Assembly (NCBI RefSeq): GCF_057098645.1
Contig: NZ_CM169472.1
Reading direction: 5' to 3' (one strand)
DNA length: 64,000 nt
Shown: positions 30,001-48,000 of the stretch, piece by piece
How positions within the stretch are numbered: the first letter of the stretch is position 1
Layout: each line of letters begins with the position of its first letter
Made by a program: the position numbers

Positions 30001-33000
30001 TTCTCCGCGGTCAGCGCAATGTTGCTGGCGAGTGCATCCAGTGCCGGACGGTGCGGGGAATCGATCTTCTCACCATTGGCATACACGTCGTCGCCAATGC
30101 GCAATACGCGCAGACCACCCAGGCGCACCAGCACATCACCTTGTTTCAGCGCATCGTAGATTTCATCTGGCTGATAAGGCGGCTCTGGCGGCGCGATATC
30201 CAGTTCATGACGTGACTGGGATATAAACTCCCCAAACCATTGCTTAAAGTGTTCCGGCTGGTTGATCAATTCGAGCATCATCTCACGCAGTTTATCCATC
30301 TCTTGCGGCAGAACATCCGCAGGATGAGCGCGAGGTGGAACATCAGGATCGCTGTAGTAGTTGCCGCCCAGTTCACGTTGCAGCACATAATCGGCAAATC
30401 CACTAATCAGTTCCCGCGTATTTGGCGCGCGAAAACCCACGGAATAGTTCATCGCATTTTCCAGCGCGTAGCCTTCATGCGGGAATCCTGGCGGAATATA
30501 AAGAATATCACCAGGCTCCAGCTCTTCATCGATGATGGCTTCGAACGGATCGACCTGTAACAGATCCGGATGTGGGCAGTGCTGTTTCATTTGCAGCTTT
30601 TCGCCCACTCGCCAGCGACGACGACCGGTACCCTGAATGATAAACACGTCGTACTGATCGAGATGCGGGCCGACGCCGCCGCCCGGTACAGAAAAAGAGA
30701 TCATCAGATCATCAATACGCCAGTCCGGTAGTTCACGGAACGGTCGCATCAGCGCGGCGGTCGGCTCATGCCAGTGGTTCACTGCCTGTACCAGTAATGA
30801 CCAGTTGGTTTCACCGAGATGATCGTAGCTTTCGAACGGACCGTGGCTGACCTGCCATTTTCCATCCTGGTGACTGACCAGTCGACTGTCGACTTCGCTT
30901 TCCATCGCCAGACCCGCCAACTCGTCTGGAGAGATCGGGTCAATAAAATTATTAAAGCCGCGTTTTAACACCACCGGGCGTTTCTGCCAGTGACGTTCAA
31001 GAAAATCGGGCCAGTTAAGAGTGAGTTGGTATTCCATGTTAAGCATCCACAGGCTGGTATCTGCAACCGATTATAACGGATGCTTAACGTAATGCGTGAA
31101 GTATGGACATATTTTATCAATTAGTGTTTTTTGCCGTTTCATAATGTTTCAGATTGTTCATTATGTTTTTGATTATAAACAGATTTGTGATTTTCCTTGT
31201 TCCAGCTTGTTTCACGTTGTAGCCCTTTGTGCAACGATCGGTGTAGTTAATGGTGTAGTTAATTGTGATGACCGGAATCAAAATTATGAGCAGAGCACTT
31301 AACAAACTGAGCGATACACAGCTGAGGAAAATCAACGGCACACCCGCCCAAAAAACAGCCTTTCTTAATGACGGTGGAAACCTGAGCGTCAGGCATTCAA
31401 CCAGTGGCCTTTTAACCTGGTATTTCACTTACAGGGCCGGAACGGGAAGGGGGGCACCACCGGAACGCATTAAGCTGGGAAATTATCCTGATCTGAGCCT
31501 GAAATCAGCCAGGGAAAAAGCCGCCCAGTGTCGCGCATGGCTGGCAGAGGGGAAAAATCCACGTCATGAGCTTAATTACACCGTACAGGAAGCGTTAAAG
31601 CCGGTAACGGTTGGCGATGCGCTCACCTACTGGCTTGAGTCGTACGCAAAGGAAAACCGCGTGGATTATGCCGCCCTGAAAAAGCGCCTTAATAATCACG
31701 TAATACAGCACATTGGTGCTATGCCGCTGGATAAATGCGAGCTACGGCACTGGCTGGCCTGTTTTGACCAGGTGGCAAAGCGAACGCCTGTTACTGCCGG
31801 ATTCTTGCTACAGACGTGCAAACAGGCGCTTAAGTTCTGCCGGAGGCGGCGCTATGCAATCAGCAACGTTCTTGATGATATGAGTGTGGCGGACGTTGGG
31901 AAAAAACCGGATATAAGCGAGCGTGTCTTAAGCACCAAAGAACTGGGCGAATTATTGCAGGCACTGGACAAAAAAATATTCTCCCCCTACTACATCGCGT
32001 TAATCCGCCTCCTGATTGTGTTCGGATGCCGGACGGTAGAACTGAGGTTATCGGAGATCAGCGAGTGGGATTTTACCGAAATGCTCTGGACCGTGCCGAA
32101 AGAACACAGCAAAACGAAGGTGGCAATATTCCGGCCCATACCGGAAGCAATACTGCCGTTCGTCACGCAGCTGGTGGAGCAGAACAGGCACACGGGTTTA
32201 TTGCTGGGGGAAGTGAAACAGGAAACAAGCGTGTCGCAGTACGGCAGATTAGCGCATAGGAGGCTAAATCACCCTCACTGGTCACTACATGACATCCGGC
32301 GCACCTTTACAACGATGCTGAACGATTTAGGCGTGGATCCTCACGTCGTGGAGCAGCTTACAGGCCACCAGATGCCAGGAATGCAGCGAGTTTATAATCA
32401 TTCCCGTTATCTGGATGCTAAACGCAATGCGCTGGATATGTGGACGGAGCGGTTAGGGATACTGGCGGGAACACATGAAAACGTAACCACGCTACCAGTA
32501 GCCAGAAGAAAATAATTTTTTTCGTGTTTTTTCAGCATGCGCATACTGGATATGCGAACAGATACAACGTGCAACAATGAGCAACAATGTGGAACAACCA
32601 CGAACAAGAGGCGAAAAAGCGTACGGATTTATAAGTAGCTGATTTTTAATGCGTTACTGGTTTTTTATACACTAGCGAATCACTCTTTAAAGAGCGAGAA
32701 AAAAGGCATGAAACAATATTTTATGCCTTTGTATTAACATGAATTTAAAAGATTTTATTCTTACTGTTTCATTTTCTGTAAATCATACATCCTCAGTATT
32801 TGCCATTCATCACTCTAGCGGGAACAATACGACACAATAAGACACCTGATGACTCTTTAAGAAACGAAAGGGGGCAATAGTGTTAAGCACTGATCGGTTT
32901 ATACGTGAAAAAGAATGCGAAAAACTAACCGGCCTTAGCCGTACGTGTCGCTACCGCCTGGAAAAGGCCGGACAATTCCCATCACGTCGTAAACTTGGCG

Positions 33001-45000: not shown

Positions 45001-48000
45001 TTGCAGATCTGCAACTCGACCATGAAACTACGGAAACTACCCGTAGTTTGGGTAGTAAGAGTAACACCCAGATTTTGGGGCTTACTCGTGATACCCAAAT
45101 TTGGGGTATCGGTGGCAACCATAACGACTTTCGTTACGGTTGATGCTTTTACCCCATTGGGGGAAAGGTATTACGATAATCATAACACCTACCGAACAGG
45201 TAAAGCCCACCAGCCTGATTAACGTTTAACCGGAAAAAAATTCCGGTAGGTGGGGATCCCCATATAGACATTAACGCCCCTCATGAATTGGTGTGCTTCC
45301 CCCTGGAAAGATGATCCGCCTGTATATTTCTTGTGTCTATTTGTTCCACGTTGTTTCATACAGTGCACCGAACGGTGTAGTCACTGGTGTAGTCATTTTG
45401 CGATTTTTGGCACTTTTTGTGGTGTTAATTATTTAATTAAATCAATGTGTTATGCGAAATAAGTTATATATAACAGCAATAAATAATGCGAGAATAAACG
45501 GCACGATGATCTCGGCGGCAAAACGGATACCGCAGAGAATAATGACCAGCATTCCCAACATAATGACGATTTTTAGGCCATTGAGCGTGATGATCGGCTT
45601 TGCCATGCTTGTCCCCGTTTTTTCTTCCTTTGCTAATAATAATGTCTTTTTCGCTCCGTCATCATAACGAAAATCAAACCGCTCAGGTAAAGAAGTGAAA
45701 ATATTTTGAGTTAATTCTTAAGCTATGATACAAATCAGGCGTGTTCAACTACCGAGGACAATTATCATCCGCGATGACGAGAAGCAACACTGCGGATAAT
45801 TGTAATATTATGGACAATTTGTTCAGGACGTTATTTTCTACATTTACCCATCTTCGTACCTCATCCACTATCTTGCTCGTAGGTGAGCAGCACTGGCGCA
45901 ACGCGCTTTAGTCCTTTCTTCTGCCAAAGCTTGCGCTAAGCGCGGGGCTTGACCACTTTACTTTGGTTTCGCTGAATTAAGCGAAAATTAAAATAATTCT
46001 CTTGCAGGAGAAGGACAATGTATATTTATTGGATTTTATTAGGTCTGGCTATTGCTACAGAAATTACCGGTACGCTGTCCATGAAATGGGCGAGCGTCAG
46101 TGAGGGAAATGGCGGTTTTATTTTAATGCTGGTGATGATTTCTCTGTCGTATATATTTCTCTCTTTCGCCGTTAAAAAAATCGCCTTAGGCGTAGCTTAT
46201 GCGCTGTGGGAAGGTATCGGTATTTTATTTATTACCTTGTTTAGCGTTTTGTTATTCGACGAAAGTTTATCGCTGATGAAAATTGCCGGGTTAACCACCC
46301 TGGTCGCCGGGATTGTGTTGATAAAATCAGGTACCCGTAAAGCGCGTAAACCTGAACTGGAGGTGAACCATGGCACAGTTTGAATGGGTTCACGCCGCCT
46401 GGCTGGCATTGGCAATCGTGCTGGAAATCGTTGCTAACGTCTTTTTGAAATTTTCTGACGGCTTTCGTCGCAAAATATTTGGCTTGCTCTCCCTGGCGGC
46501 GGTGCTGGCTGCCTTTAGTGCGCTTTCTCAGGCCGTTAAAGGGATCGACTTGTCTGTCGCTTATGCATTGTGGGGCGGGTTTGGTATTGCCGCCACGTTA
46601 GCCGCAGGTTGGATCTTGTTTGGTCAACGGTTAAATCGTAAAGGCTGGATTGGCCTGGTCTTGCTGTTGGCTGGAATGATCATGGTGAAACTTGCCTGAT
46701 GAAGACGCTGCCCGCGCTGTCGGGCAGCGTTTGAACATTATTTTTGCGACAGTTGATCCAGCTTGTCGCGAAAACCGGTAACAGAAATGGCCCGGTTATC
46801 GGCGCGCCAGCGATCTTTCGCGGCAGGAGCCGAACTTTGCACCCCAATTAATTGCCAGCCGTCATCGGTATGCAACATCAGAGGCGAACCGCTGTCACCC
46901 GGCAAGGTATCGCACTGATGTGACATCACCGACGTTTGCGCCCAGCCAGTCACTTCACAGTTTTGATGACTGTACAACGTATCGAGATGATCTTCAGGGT
47001 ATCCTGCCTGAGTCACTTTACGACCTGCCGCTTTTAATGCGGCGGTAAGCGCGGCTTTATCTCCCTCAAATAACGGCAACGGTGTAATGCCAGAAGGGGG
47101 ATTACGTAGCACAATCAATCCGAAGTCCCACGGCGCGGCTGCGGGAGGTATAATCCAACCATCCCCATCTGCTTTTAACCTCTTTCCCAGTGTCGGATCA
47201 ACGCGGCCTTCTATGTCGTGGATGTCATAGCGCCAAAGACCTTTATTTGACACAAAACGCAGCGCCACTGCTTTATCGGCTTTACCCTTTGGAGGTGTCA
47301 ATAAACAGTGTCCTGCCGTTAATGCCAGATTGGGTGCAATCAGCGTCGCCGTACATAAATTGCCGCTGGCCGTTTCCAGTTGCCCAACCGCATCCCACGG
47401 TGATTGGGTCGTGTCATTCACTGGCACACGATCATCATGACCAAAAAACAGGGTGCTAACCTCATCGTTTGCCGATTTGGCAACGTCTGGTTTATCTGCA
47501 AACACAAAAGCAGACGTCAAACTAATTGCACCCAACACTACAGCAATGGTTGTACGCATATCACACTCTGGTGGGTAATTATGATTATTAAAAGCAAACC
47601 CTCATAAATACTATAGACGGGACGGGATGAAAGTGGGAGTAAAATCAGATAACTACAGTCAGGAAAGATAAAAACGGGCGGCAATCAGTGCGCATAAAAT
47701 AAGGATGATAAGAATGAACTCAAAGCGATAACGGCCCACCATACTACCCTCCGCTAAAGGCGGTGCTAAACGTTACCCGCTTAGCACCGTAATTTTCAGG
47801 CGCGAGGGGGCGCGCCAGCATTACTGTTGAAAACTTATGCTGCGGGTTGTGCAGCAGGTTTTGCCGGTTGCTGATGGCTGTGTTTCCCGGCGTGTTTCTT
47901 CGCTGCCTGCGCTTTTTGTTCAGGGGCTTTCTGTTCAGCTTTCGTATTTTTATGATGCTTTTTAGCCGCCTGCGCTTTCTGGGCAGGTGCTGCTTTATGC

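What the first reader, a model, noticed from the sequence alone, without database searches (positions are those of the whole stretch)
31197..45395. Recurrent 10-bp-phased TTGTT arrays and GGTGTAGTYA tandem repeats at four places in the satellite
Arrays of TTGTT spaced at exactly 10 bp occur upstream of int (31197-31230), downstream of int on the opposite strand (32563-32608), upstream of the capsid operon (37867-37891) and at the right end (45331-45355). Two of them share the 19-mer TTGTTCGTGGTTGTTCCAC. The two terminal blocks also carry tandem GGTGTAGT(T/C)A pairs. Same-face phasing suggests cooperative binding of one protein (integrase arm-type sites, AlpA or another element-encoded regulator) coordinating integration and late-operon expression.
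Basis: seen in the sequence. Interest (0 to 1): 0.55.

Follow-up and report, generated by a model that had tools for sequence, protein, structure and literature searches.

The report
AlpA-type operator arrays in a phage satellite
The repeats are real and conserved: the paired GGTGTAGTYA motifs look like the integrase's arm sites, and the 10-bp-phased TTGT arrays look like docking sites for the satellite's small AlpA protein, which would link cutting the element out of the chromosome to switching on its capsid genes. This is a familiar design in a satellite family where it had not been mapped.

Summary
TTGT phased at exactly 10 bp, three or more units, occurs only at the four stated places in 64 kb (7 overlapping matches, 0.01 expected). 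Exact GGTGTAGTYA occurs only as the two terminal tandem pairs. The element is an E. coli capsid-forming PICI (EcCIEDL933-like).

In 90 related loci (1.2 Mb), 133 of 135 arrays lie at the same four positions. TTGT is nearly invariant, the spacers vary, and copy number changes by whole 10-bp units.

The two motifs separate:
- **Tandem pairs** (12-bp period, both att arms) change with the integrase clade, so they are the probable Int arm-type sites.
- **TTGT arrays** do not follow Int. A cf-PICI with an unrelated integrase and its own Xis has no arrays at its ends but keeps the array upstream of the capsid operon. Near-identical relatives lacking alpA have no array.

AlpA is an excisionase-fold winged helix. 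Its relative TorI binds 10-bp-phased GTTCG sites in the same core–RDF–arm–int order.

Best reading (about 0.55): AlpA is a dual excisionase and regulator acting through these arrays. No binding data exist. This is a new member of a known kind, of moderate interest. The window's element is also a hybrid of two cf-PICIs.

The parts
31105..31114 (.). attL core of the roxA/phoQ-type element (GGACATATTT)
   Evidence: The same 10-mer flanks both ends of the FORC_042 element L001. The window's left flank is identical to L001's.
31197..31230 (+). Site 1: a TTGT array of 4 units at 10-bp phase in the int-proximal att arm, 82 bp from the core. Proposed AlpA (RDF) sites.
   Evidence: It is conserved at this position in all Int-family relatives whose upstream DNA is available.
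31240..31261 (+). Tandem pair GGTGTAGTTA-AT-GGTGTAGTTA with a 12-bp period, 25-46 bp before the int ATG. Proposed Int arm-type sites.
   Evidence: The pair changes with the Int clade. It sits in a fixed register, 13 bp after the last TTGT unit.
31286..32515 (+). int, a heterobivalent tyrosine integrase of 409 aa
   Evidence: Pfam finds Arm-DNA-bind_3 at residues 8-95, plus Phage_int_M and Phage_integrase. PHROG 1 integrase.
32564..32607 (-). Site 2: a TTGT array of 5 units on the minus strand, 49-92 bp after the int stop and 273-316 bp before the alpA start. Proposed AlpA autoregulatory site.
   Evidence: It has 3-6 units in relatives, with variable spacers and gain of a whole 10-bp unit. Degenerate GTTC-core equivalents occur in EcCICFT073-like elements.
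32880..33068 (+). alpA, a 62-aa winged-helix protein of the excisionase/regulator family. It is the proposed binder of the TTGT arrays.
   Evidence: Pfam PF05930 with E = 6e-17. PHROG 2790, 'excisionase and transcriptional regulator'. The model has pLDDT 86 and its best fold match is the GIsul2 excisionase 8c3t (TM 0.84/0.91), followed by RdfS, Pukovnik Xis and TorI.
37826..37843 (+). Terminator-like hairpin followed by a T run, closing the early operon (alpA to perC-like)
37846..37892 (+). Site 3: a TTGT array upstream of the capsid/packaging operon. Three strict units lie at 37867, 37877 and 37887, with two further TTGT at 37846 and 37856. Proposed AlpA operator of the late operon.
   Evidence: It is conserved, with TTGTAAATTAT in front, in diverged cf-PICIs whose downstream leader is unrelated. 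It is also present in elements with an unrelated integrase.
37909..37914 (+). -10-like hexamer TATTTT, 16 nt after the last TTGTTC unit (weak inference)
   Evidence: Read. The same TTGTTC-N16-TATTTT geometry recurs in L083 with a different spacer. It is absent from the L284-type leader. The consensus scan finds no sigma-70 promoter here.
38108..44448 (+). Late operon: major capsid, prohead protease, portal, head closure, connector, HNH, TerS (P27 family) and TerL
   Evidence: ORFs. TerS matches TIGR01558.
45331..45354 (+). Site 4: a TTGT array of 3 units in the distal att arm
   Evidence: It is conserved at the right end of all relatives whose end is available.
45374..45395 (+). Tandem pair GGTGTAGTCA-CT-GGTGTAGTCA with a 12-bp period, 74 bp from the attR core. 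Proposed Int arm-type sites.
   Evidence: It lies 23 bp after the last TTGT unit, in the same helical register as the left end.
45470..45478 (.). attR core of the tqsA-type element (ATAACAGCA). It does not match the core at the left end.
   Evidence: The same 9-mer flanks both ends of the MBT-5 element L002, inside tqsA.

Best explanation
Two different proteins read the two motifs.

**Tandem pairs.** The 12-bp-period pairs (GGTGTAGTYA x2), one in each att arm, are the arm-type sites of the element's heterobivalent integrase.

**TTGT arrays.** The 10-bp-phased arrays (consensus TTGTTC[C/G]nnn) are head-to-tail binding sites for the 62-aa winged-helix protein AlpA. AlpA would act here as a dual-purpose recombination directionality factor (RDF) and transcription regulator, like 186 Apl, P2 Cox, P4 Vis and KplE1 TorI.

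**Proposed sequence of events.**
1. The helper phage turns on alpA.
2. AlpA polymerises on the arrays next to the Int arm sites in attL and attR. The helical register there is fixed, so it can bend the DNA and contact Int to build the excisive complex.
3. AlpA binds the array upstream of its own gene, giving positive feedback.
4. AlpA binds the array just after the early-operon terminator and switches on the capsid/packaging operon.

**Shown:** the arrays, their conservation and their co-occurrence patterns.
**Inferred:** who binds, and the regulatory outcome at each site.
For: **1. The arrays behave like selected protein sites.**
- In 90 loci (1.21 Mb), 133 of 135 strict arrays lie at the four homologous positions.
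- TTGT is 96-99% conserved, T5 about 78% and C6 about 62%; positions 8-10 are free.
- Copy number varies by whole 10-bp units.

**2. The tandem pairs follow Int.**
- GGTGTAGTYA occurs with Ints of 76-100% amino-acid identity.
- TGTGTGGTCAG x2 occurs with a 66% Int.
- GGTATCCTATAGGTATCCT occurs at both ends with a 23% Int, whether or not alpA is present.
- TAGGCCCATTGA/TAGGCCCAACGA lies before intA of CP4-57.
- tgTGTATTGCa x2 occurs in HE-PICIs with the same geometry (81 bp up and 132 bp down of the attP centre; here about 79 and 133) (PMC10111431).
- Int has an arm-binding domain.

**3. The TTGT arrays do not follow Int.**
- L284 and L279 have the unrelated Int, their own excisionase-like HTH and an AlpA 72% identical to this one.
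- They have no TTGT array at either end. The only array in 26.7 kb is site 3.
- L517 and L283 share a 94-97% identical backbone (measured for L517; L283 has the same gene order). Both lack alpA and the cf-type late operon, and have no array at all.

**4. AlpA has the right fold.** It belongs to PF05930 and its best fold matches are solved excisionases.

**5. Experimental precedent.**
- TorI is 29% identical. It binds GTTCG/GATCG/GTCCG sites, three of them at 10-bp phase abutting PintS.
- The order there is core, TorI sites, IntS arm sites, intS (PMC2951348; sequence read). That order is the same as here.
- RDFs in general bind direct repeats one helical turn apart, and Apl does so both at att and between promoters (PMC7498355).

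**6. Genetics in PICIs.**
- AlpA is required for induction of EcCIEDL933 (10.1101/2022.09.08.507074).
- In EcCICFT073, AlpA activates its own promoter but not Pint. AlpA alone triggers int-dependent excision (PMC6092414). That is what an RDF with sites in the att arms and upstream of alpA would do.
- AlpA is the excisionase of CP4So (PMC5148205).

**7. Fixed register.** The 13/23/33/43-bp register between the array and the pair in all variants suggests contact between the two bound proteins.
Against: - There are no binding, footprint or reporter data for this AlpA or these arrays. The assignment rests on co-occurrence and analogy.
- The Int-swap evidence comes from one lineage (tRNA-Ile elements). 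The late-operon module could have carried site 3 along passively.
- RDF sites on both att arms are unusual. In lambda and KplE1 they lie on one arm only.
- Classical PICIs with AlpA (L003-L005) show no array in front of their late genes.
- L284 has no array near alpA, although AlpA is reported to auto-activate.
- Other proteins are shared by all array-bearing elements (Icd-like, DUF4222, SSB) and are not excluded.
- TTGTTC x3 at 10-bp phase occurs in many unrelated viral contigs without AlpA, so the motif alone is not diagnostic.
- No sigma-70-like promoter is predicted next to the arrays. The -10-like element after site 3 is not conserved in the L284-type leader.
- TorI's core (GTTCG) overlaps the most conserved part here (TTGT) but is not identical to it.
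Confidence: 0.55

Rival explanations
1. The TTGT arrays are the arm-type sites of the integrase, as in the first reader's first option. The internal copies would titrate Int or let it regulate transcription. The GGTGTAGTYA pairs would be bound by something else.
For: - Arrays flank the core on both arms, as arm-type sites do.
- They are present in every relative of this Int family, at five different att sites.
- Lambda P'1-P'3 are also adjacent phased repeats (general knowledge).
Against: - Site 3 is kept in elements whose Int is 23% identical and whose own arms lack TTGT arrays.
- The doubled 11-12-bp-period motif next to int is what changes with the Int clade (PMC10111431).
- In KplE1 the experimentally defined IntS arm sites are the tandem TAAA-containing sites nearest intS, and the 10-bp-phased sites belong to the RDF (PMC2951348).
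Confidence: 0.1
2. The arrays are bound by a protein other than AlpA or Int. Candidates are another conserved element protein (DUF4222, Icd-like), the still unidentified helper-phage inducer of alpA, or a host winged-helix response regulator that reads phased direct repeats. TorR boxes, for example, are CTGTTCATAT.
For: - Icd-like, DUF4222 and SSB genes are present in all array-bearing elements.
- The helper factor that switches on alpA is unknown (PMC6092414), and an array lies upstream of alpA.
- OmpR/PhoB-family regulators bind 10-11-bp direct repeats (general knowledge).
Against: - Arrays sit in the att arms only where the element has no separate excisionase, which is RDF logic.
- L283 and L517 keep DUF4222, Icd-like and SSB but have no array.
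- No such arrays occur in the roughly 50 kb of chromosomal DNA in the window.
Confidence: 0.2
3. There is no dedicated binder. The arrays would be phased sequence that confers intrinsic curvature for intasome assembly, or relics of duplicated att-arm modules carried along by homology.
For: - A degenerate copy of the block around the pair lies about 125 bp after site 3 (D3), hinting at descent from an arm module.
- The terminal blocks are imperfect duplicates of each other (D1).
Against: - TTGT contains no A-tract.
- G3 is 97-99% conserved while neighbouring spacer positions are free.
- Arrays gain or lose exact 10-bp units.
- Site 3 is kept while the flanking leader is replaced.
Confidence: 0.05

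Closest known systems
KplE1 (CPS-53) attL: TorI RDF sites plus IntS arm-type sites overlapping PintS (PMC2951348)
   Same: - The RDF is a small winged helix, 29% identical to this AlpA over the 42 aligned residues.
- The RDF sites have a GTTC-containing core, three of them at exact 10-bp phase.
- The order is core, RDF sites, tandem Int arm sites, int start.
   Different: - TorI sites lie on one arm only. Here arrays lie on both arms and at two internal sites.
- The conserved core here is TTGT(TC) rather than GTTCG.
- TorI represses int, whereas PICI AlpA is an activator and does not affect Pint in EcCICFT073 (PMC6092414).
Dual-purpose RDF/regulators: 186 Apl, P2 Cox, P4 Vis (PMC7498355)
   Same: One small protein binds arrays of direct repeats one helical turn apart, both at att and at promoters. 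This couples excision to the transcription programme.
   Different: - Apl and Cox repress the lysogenic and lytic promoters.
- Here the internal arrays lie upstream of alpA and of a capsid operon, and AlpA is genetically an activator.
- Apl and Cox are not PF05930 proteins.
- Binding is not demonstrated here.
Doubled attP motif tgTGTATTGCantgTGTATTGCa of helper-embedded PICIs (PMC10111431)
   Same: - It is a tandem pair with a 12-bp period.
- Two co-oriented copies lie about 80 bp before and 130 bp after the attP centre.
- It shares the GTGTAnT core.
- The integrase is related and begins MALNKLSD.
   Different: - The sequence differs, and that paper reported the motif as absent from other PICIs.
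- No in-register TTGT array accompanies it in the contexts fetched.
- Its binder is likewise unknown.
EcCIEDL933 / EcCICFT073 AlpA-dependent induction (10.1101/2022.09.08.507074; PMC6092414)
   Same: It has the same element family and int-alpA module: the int-alpA stretch 31100-33100 is 99.9% identical to the O157 element at roxA/phoQ. AlpA is required for induction, auto-activates, and suffices for int-dependent excision.
   Different: Those studies did not define any AlpA binding site. This window's element has a RepA helicase module and mismatched ends.

Membership tests
RDF (excisionase) operator arrays | Direct, head-to-tail repeats spaced one DNA helical turn apart | tested here: met
   The spacing is exactly 10 bp, with 3-5 units at each of the four sites. 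Phase is kept in 133 arrays of relatives.
RDF (excisionase) operator arrays | Located in an att arm, next to Int arm-type sites | tested here: met
   Arrays lie 74-85 bp from the cores and 13 or 23 bp before the tandem pairs, on both arms. Having them on both arms is atypical.
RDF (excisionase) operator arrays | A cognate small winged-helix RDF is encoded by the element, with no other excisionase present | tested here: met
   AlpA belongs to PF05930 and has an excisionase fold. No other Xis-like ORF was found among those scanned between int and the RepA gene. Relatives that do carry a separate Xis lack arrays at their ends.
RDF (excisionase) operator arrays | Cooperative binding and bending by the RDF, and a requirement for excision | not testable with these tools
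   This needs EMSA or footprinting and excision assays.
Arm-type sites of heterobivalent tyrosine integrases (applied to the GGTGTAGTYA pairs) | The integrase carries an N-terminal arm-binding domain | tested here: met
   Arm-DNA-bind_3 (PF13356) at residues 8-95, E = 4e-17.
Arm-type sites of heterobivalent tyrosine integrases (applied to the GGTGTAGTYA pairs) | Repeated sites on both arms, distinct from the core, that co-vary with the integrase | tested here: met
   Four Int clades carry four different doubled motifs at equivalent positions, and HE-PICIs add another (PMC10111431).
Arm-type sites of heterobivalent tyrosine integrases (applied to the GGTGTAGTYA pairs) | Bound by the Int N-terminal domain | not testable with these tools
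Arm-type sites of heterobivalent tyrosine integrases (applied to the TTGT arrays) | Presence depends on the cognate integrase | tested here: not met
   Site 3 is retained with a 23%-identical Int whose own arms lack TTGT arrays.
Capsid-forming PICI (cf-PICI) | int, alpA and a replication module, plus a complete capsid/packaging module and no tail or lysis genes, about 14-15 kb, at a site not used by prophages | tested here: met
   The element spans about 14.4 kb between the two cores. Helper dependence is not testable.
Pseudomonas aeruginosa AlpA-type (Q-like) antiterminator with an AlpA binding element | A multi-helix Q-like protein that forms a ring in the RNA exit channel, with the ABE (GGGACG) between -35 and -10 | tested here: not met
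   This AlpA is a 62-aa winged helix with 3 helices and 2 strands. P. aeruginosa AlpA has at least 8 helices, with the HTH at residues around 128-142 (PMC9371919). Only the name is shared.
Replication-origin iterons | Clustered repeats next to the initiator gene | tested here: not met
   The TTGT arrays are dispersed at four sites. A separate iteron set, AAAAAGTGGGGAG, lies at 36675-36887, directly after the RepA helicase gene.

The most novel reading that the evidence does not exclude
The TTGT arrays are not AlpA sites. They would be the landing pads of the still unidentified helper-phage (or host response-regulator) factor that switches PICIs on. One incoming signal would then directly touch the att arms, the alpA control region and the capsid operon. 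In that case the array sequence would predict which helpers can induce which satellites.
Probability: 0.07. Interest if true: 0.7.

Novelty: new member of a known kind. Interest (0 to 1): 0.42.

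Why it matters
AlpA is the master switch of Gram-negative PICIs and cf-PICIs, but none of the papers I found and read defines a DNA target for it. If the model holds, it has these consequences:
- A concrete operator, TTGTTC[C/G] at 10-bp phase, would make the AlpA regulon predictable from sequence.
- It would explain why AlpA alone triggers int-dependent excision without changing Pint.
- It would explain how a capsid-forming satellite times its own capsid operon.
- The doubled 12-bp motif would become a general, clade-specific signature of arm sites in this integrase family, which is useful for delimiting satellites and predicting cross-talk between them.
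- All four sites can be tested directly with simple EMSA and reporter experiments.

Tried and rejected
- **Genome-contig scan with the single Int protein**.
- **Viral-contig scan for TTGTTC-N4-TTGTTC-N4-TTGTTC**. It returned at least 120 contigs, almost all without AlpA or this Int. The bare pattern is therefore not specific to the family and could not be used to find AlpA with other integrases.
- **Viral-contig scan for the site-3 15-mer TTGTAAATTATTTGT**. It was swamped by AT-rich chance hits. Only 7 full site-3 arrays turned up, mostly on truncated loci.
- **AlpA-alignment scan**. It mostly re-fetched the same elements, but it did deliver L279, the key Int-swap case.
- **HE-PICI doubled-motif scan**. 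No in-register TTGT array sits beside TGTATTGC pairs, so the array-plus-pair module does not generalise to that clade.
- **P. aeruginosa AlpA antiterminator model.** Rejected: unrelated fold and size (PMC9371919).
- **Promoter and terminator scans**. There is no consensus sigma-70 promoter at any array. Only the terminator before site 3 was informative.
- **Rfam at E up to 0.1 over 30500-46500.** Nothing found.
- **Ori iterons and TerS/cos sites as explanations.** Rejected: the ori repeats are elsewhere, and arrays also occur in classical PICIs that lack TerL and HNH.
- **P4 Int/Vis paper** (PubMed 16847139). Not held in the library, so P4 Vis boxes could not be compared.
- **Int-X classical PICIs with AlpA.** I looked for them as a control, but the ones fetched (L283, L517) all lack alpA.

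Full report

Yes. TTGT-N6-TTGT-N6-TTGT gives seven overlapping matches in the 64-kb window, against 0.01 expected from shuffles. All of them fall in four places:
- 31197-31230, + strand, four units
- 32564-32607, - strand, five units
- 37867-37890, + strand, three units
- 45331-45354, + strand, three units

A relaxed scan (TTGTTC with up to two mismatches per unit, at least three phased units) finds the same four places and nothing else. It finds 0.15 per shuffled window.

Exact GGTGTAGTYA occurs only as two tandem pairs, at 31240/31252 and 45374/45386. The 19-mer shared by sites 2 and 3 is part of a 25-nt, 96% inverted match. All four arrays lie in non-coding DNA.

**2. What is the element?**

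The genes, in order, are:
- int (31286-32515)
- a 62-aa alpA (32880-33068)
- an Icd-like fusion protein
- a RepA-type helicase
- ssb
- a PerC-like gene
- after a terminator, a late operon: major capsid, protease, portal, connectors, HNH, TerS and TerL

Homologues in 163 complete E. coli genomes are annotated the same way. The int-alpA stretch (31100-33100) is 99.9% identical to the O157 element at roxA/phoQ, which is EcCIEDL933, the prototype capsid-forming PICI (10.1101/2022.09.08.507074).

Comparison with a roxA/phoQ element (L001, core GGACATATTT) and a tqsA element (L002, core ATAACAGCA) places the cores in the window at 31105-31114 and 45470-45478.

In the circular form the order is therefore:
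[TTGT x3] - [pair] - 74 bp - core - 82-85 bp - [TTGT x4] - [pair] - 25 bp - int.

Both modules point the same way.

**3. Are the motifs conserved?**

I collected relatives from complete E. coli genomes and from IMG/VR. In 90 non-redundant loci (1.21 Mb) there are 135 strict arrays:
- 47 are followed by a tandem pair (the ends)
- 60 sit just after int on the minus strand (site 2)
- 26 follow TTGTAAATTAT upstream of the capsid gene (site 3)
- only 2 lie elsewhere

Across 46 distinct arrays, T1 T2 G3 T4 are 96-99% conserved, T5 about 78% and C6 about 62%, position 7 is C or G, and positions 8-10 are essentially free.

Site 2 has 3, 5 or 6 units in different lineages. One variant has gained exactly one 10-bp unit.

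Site 3 is retained in cf-PICIs whose downstream leader sequence is unrelated.

In every variant, the in-phase TTGT units of the terminal arrays lie 13, 23, 33 or 43 bp before the first unit of the tandem pair. The two motifs therefore keep a fixed helical register.

These are the marks of selected protein-binding sites.

**4. Who binds what? The natural swaps.**

*Relatives of this integrase.* Relatives (66-100% amino-acid identity) sit at five different chromosomal sites, in both classical and capsid-forming PICIs. All keep the terminal array-plus-pair module at both ends. The most divergent Int (66%, L006) has TGTGTGGTCAG x2 in place of GGTGTAGTYA x2, while the TTGT arrays are unchanged.

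*The decisive case.* This is a cf-PICI at tRNA-Ile (L284, and the partial L279):
- Its integrase is only 23% identical.
- It carries an additional excisionase-like HTH.
- Its AlpA is 72% identical to the window's.
- Its two ends carry GGTATCCTATAGGTATCCT and no TTGT array.
- The only phased TTGT array in 26.7 kb is site 3, upstream of the capsid operon.

*The near-isogenic controls.* L517 and L283 share a 94-97% identical backbone (measured for L517; L283 has the same gene order). They have a precise 200-bp loss of alpA and a different late module. They have the same doubled motif at the ends and no TTGT array anywhere.

*What follows.* The tandem pairs track the integrase and are indifferent to alpA. 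The TTGT arrays do not track the integrase. They co-occur with alpA, and they occupy the att arms only where the element has no separate excisionase.

**5. Fit with what is known.**

*The proteins.* Int has an Arm-DNA-bind_3 domain. AlpA belongs to PF05930. Its model (pLDDT 86) matches solved excisionases best: GIsul2 Xis 8c3t (TM 0.84/0.91), RdfS, Pukovnik Xis and TorI.

*KplE1.* The RDF TorI is 29% identical to this AlpA. It binds five sites with cores GTTCG, GATCG and GTCCG. Three of them are at exact 10-bp phase and abut the -35 of PintS. The IntS arm-type sites are the tandem TAAA-containing repeats between them and the intS start (PMC2951348; sequence read). The order there, core then phased RDF sites then tandem Int arm sites then int, is the order found here.

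*CP4-57.* The home of the original AlpA shows a TAGGCCCATTGA/TAGGCCCAACGA pair with a 12-bp period before intA. It also has GTCCG and ATCCG 20 bp apart upstream.

*Helper-embedded PICIs.* They have a doubled motif, tgTGTATTGCa x2, 81 bp before and 132 bp after the attP centre, with an unknown binder (PMC10111431). The pairs here have the same period and geometry (about 79 and 133 bp in L002) and share GTGTAnT.

*RDFs in general.* They bind head-to-tail repeats one helical turn apart. Apl, Cox and Vis do so both at att and at promoters (PMC7498355).

*PICI genetics.* AlpA is needed for cf-PICI induction (10.1101/2022.09.08.507074). In EcCICFT073 it activates its own promoter but not Pint, and on its own it causes int-dependent excision and replication (PMC6092414). 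AlpA is the excisionase of CP4So (PMC5148205).

**6. The mechanism I think most likely (confidence about 0.55).**

The tandem pairs are the Int arm-type sites. I rate that part alone at about 0.8. The TTGT arrays are AlpA operators.

After the helper phage switches on alpA, AlpA would do three things:
- It would polymerise on the arrays beside the Int arm sites on both arms. The fixed register suggests contact with Int. This would direct excision and presumably block re-integration.
- It would bind the array upstream of alpA, giving feedback. EcCICFT073-like elements have a degenerate nnGTTCgnnn x4 array at the equivalent place, in the same orientation.
- It would bind site 3, which starts 3 bp after the early-operon terminator (37826-37843), to turn on the capsid/packaging operon.

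The last TTGTTC of site 3 lies 16 nt before a -10-like TATTTT (37909-37914). That geometry recurs in one diverged variant but not in another, so the promoter placement is a weak inference.

The arrays, their conservation and the co-occurrence patterns are shown. Binding, bending and the sign of regulation are inferred.

**7. Weak points and rivals.**

Weak points:
- There are no binding data.
- The Int-swap evidence comes from a single lineage, and site 3 could have travelled with the late module.
- RDF sites on both arms are unusual.
- Classical PICIs with AlpA show no array before their late genes.
- L284 has none near alpA.
- The bare pattern occurs in many unrelated viral contigs.

Rivals:
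- Int arm-type sites (0.10).
- Another element, helper or host protein (0.20).
- Curvature or relic sequence (0.05).

The Pseudomonas AlpA antiterminator is an unrelated Q-like protein and was rejected (PMC9371919).

**8. Novelty and score.**

The design, a dual RDF/regulator with phased operator arrays plus doubled arm-type sites, is well known from P2/186/P4/KplE1. The doubled motif has been described for a sister PICI clade.

New here:
- a concrete candidate AlpA operator for PICIs and cf-PICIs
- its presence on both arms in register with the arm sites
- its position in front of the satellite's own capsid operon
- the extension of the doubled motif to this integrase clade

I class it as a new member of a known kind, with interest 0.42. 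It is useful and directly testable but not surprising to a specialist.

**9. Noticed along the way.**

The element in this window is a hybrid. Its left end and flank are of the roxA/phoQ type and its right end and flank of the tqsA type. This is as expected from an inversion between two oppositely oriented cf-PICIs. Its two cores do not match, so this copy probably cannot excise cleanly.

Noticed in passing
window 31105-31114 and 45470-45478, with flanks 29916-31046 (roxA) and 45442-47559 (tqsA 5' fragment, mdtJ, mdtI, ydgD): The element is a hybrid of two cf-PICIs. Its attL core and left flank are those of the roxA/phoQ site, and its attR core and right flank are those of the tqsA site. The left part is 98.4% identical to L001; the right part and flank are 98.3% identical to L002. 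This fits an inversion between two oppositely oriented copies, roughly 0.48 Mb apart in K-12 terms (gene order from memory). No complete E. coli genome in the collection covers both flanks. The mismatched cores suggest this copy cannot excise cleanly.
   Followed up: partly
window 36675-36887: Repeats of AAAAAGTGGGGAG(T/C)AAAA lie about 84 bp apart, with internal sub-repeats, directly after the RepA-type helicase gene (35276-36676). They are probably the replication-origin iterons and are distinct from the TTGT arrays.
   Followed up: no
window 37968-37985 / 38000-38017: An 18-nt, 94% inverted repeat with a 14-nt loop lies in the roughly 190-nt leader between site 3 and the capsid start codon. 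It is conserved in L001 and L002. No T run follows it, so it is not an obvious terminator. It may be a regulatory RNA structure or a protein site.
   Followed up: no
window 38016-38044: AACGATCGGTGCGATTACTGATTTCCTTA is a 72% copy of the 'AACGATCGGTGTAGTTAATGGTGTAGTTA' block of the att arm (D3). Site 3 may therefore descend from a duplicated att-arm module whose Int pair has decayed. The match could also be chance.
   Followed up: no
L407 (E. coli K-12 CP4-57 attL) 757-814: Upstream of intA there is a TAGGCCCATTGA/TAGGCCCAACGA tandem pair with a 12-bp period, preceded by AAGTCCGAA and AAATCCGAA 20 bp apart. This is the same layout (phased RDF-like sites, then a doubled motif, then int) in the element that gave AlpA its name.
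   Followed up: partly
L283 about 18440-18470 and L517 about 9440, compared with L284 11560-11763: alpA is missing as a clean 200-bp deletion between GGGGGGAGTGATGGC-type repeats in tRNA-Ile classical PICIs whose backbone is otherwise 94-97% identical (measured for L517). This agrees with the report that tRNA-Ile2 PICIs lack alpA (PMC10111431).
   Followed up: partly
L004 17614-17653, L005 17611-17650, L070 1489-1528 (all minus strand); L006 18142-18171; L070 1876-1909: EcCICFT073-like elements (another alpA allele) have a degenerate four-unit nnGTTCgnnn array at 10-bp phase about 120-160 bp upstream of alpA. L006 has one overlapping the alpA start, and L070/L074 have one just after alpA. The core resembles TorI's GTTCG.
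   Followed up: partly
L301, L302 and L173 (one 54-kb IMG/VR prophage contig): A helper-embedded PICI carries the published TGTATTGC doubled motif before an int that begins MALNKLSD. The same contig has a site-3-type TTGT array. The arm next to int shows only isolated TTGTTCG, not an in-register array.
   Followed up: partly
window 33126-34295: A 389-aa ORF has only its C-terminal 45-90 residues matching Icd-like / 'transcriptional repressor' families. Relatives have it split into a roughly 250-290-aa hypothetical protein and a 65-aa Icd-like protein, so here it is a fusion or a frameshift difference.
   Followed up: no
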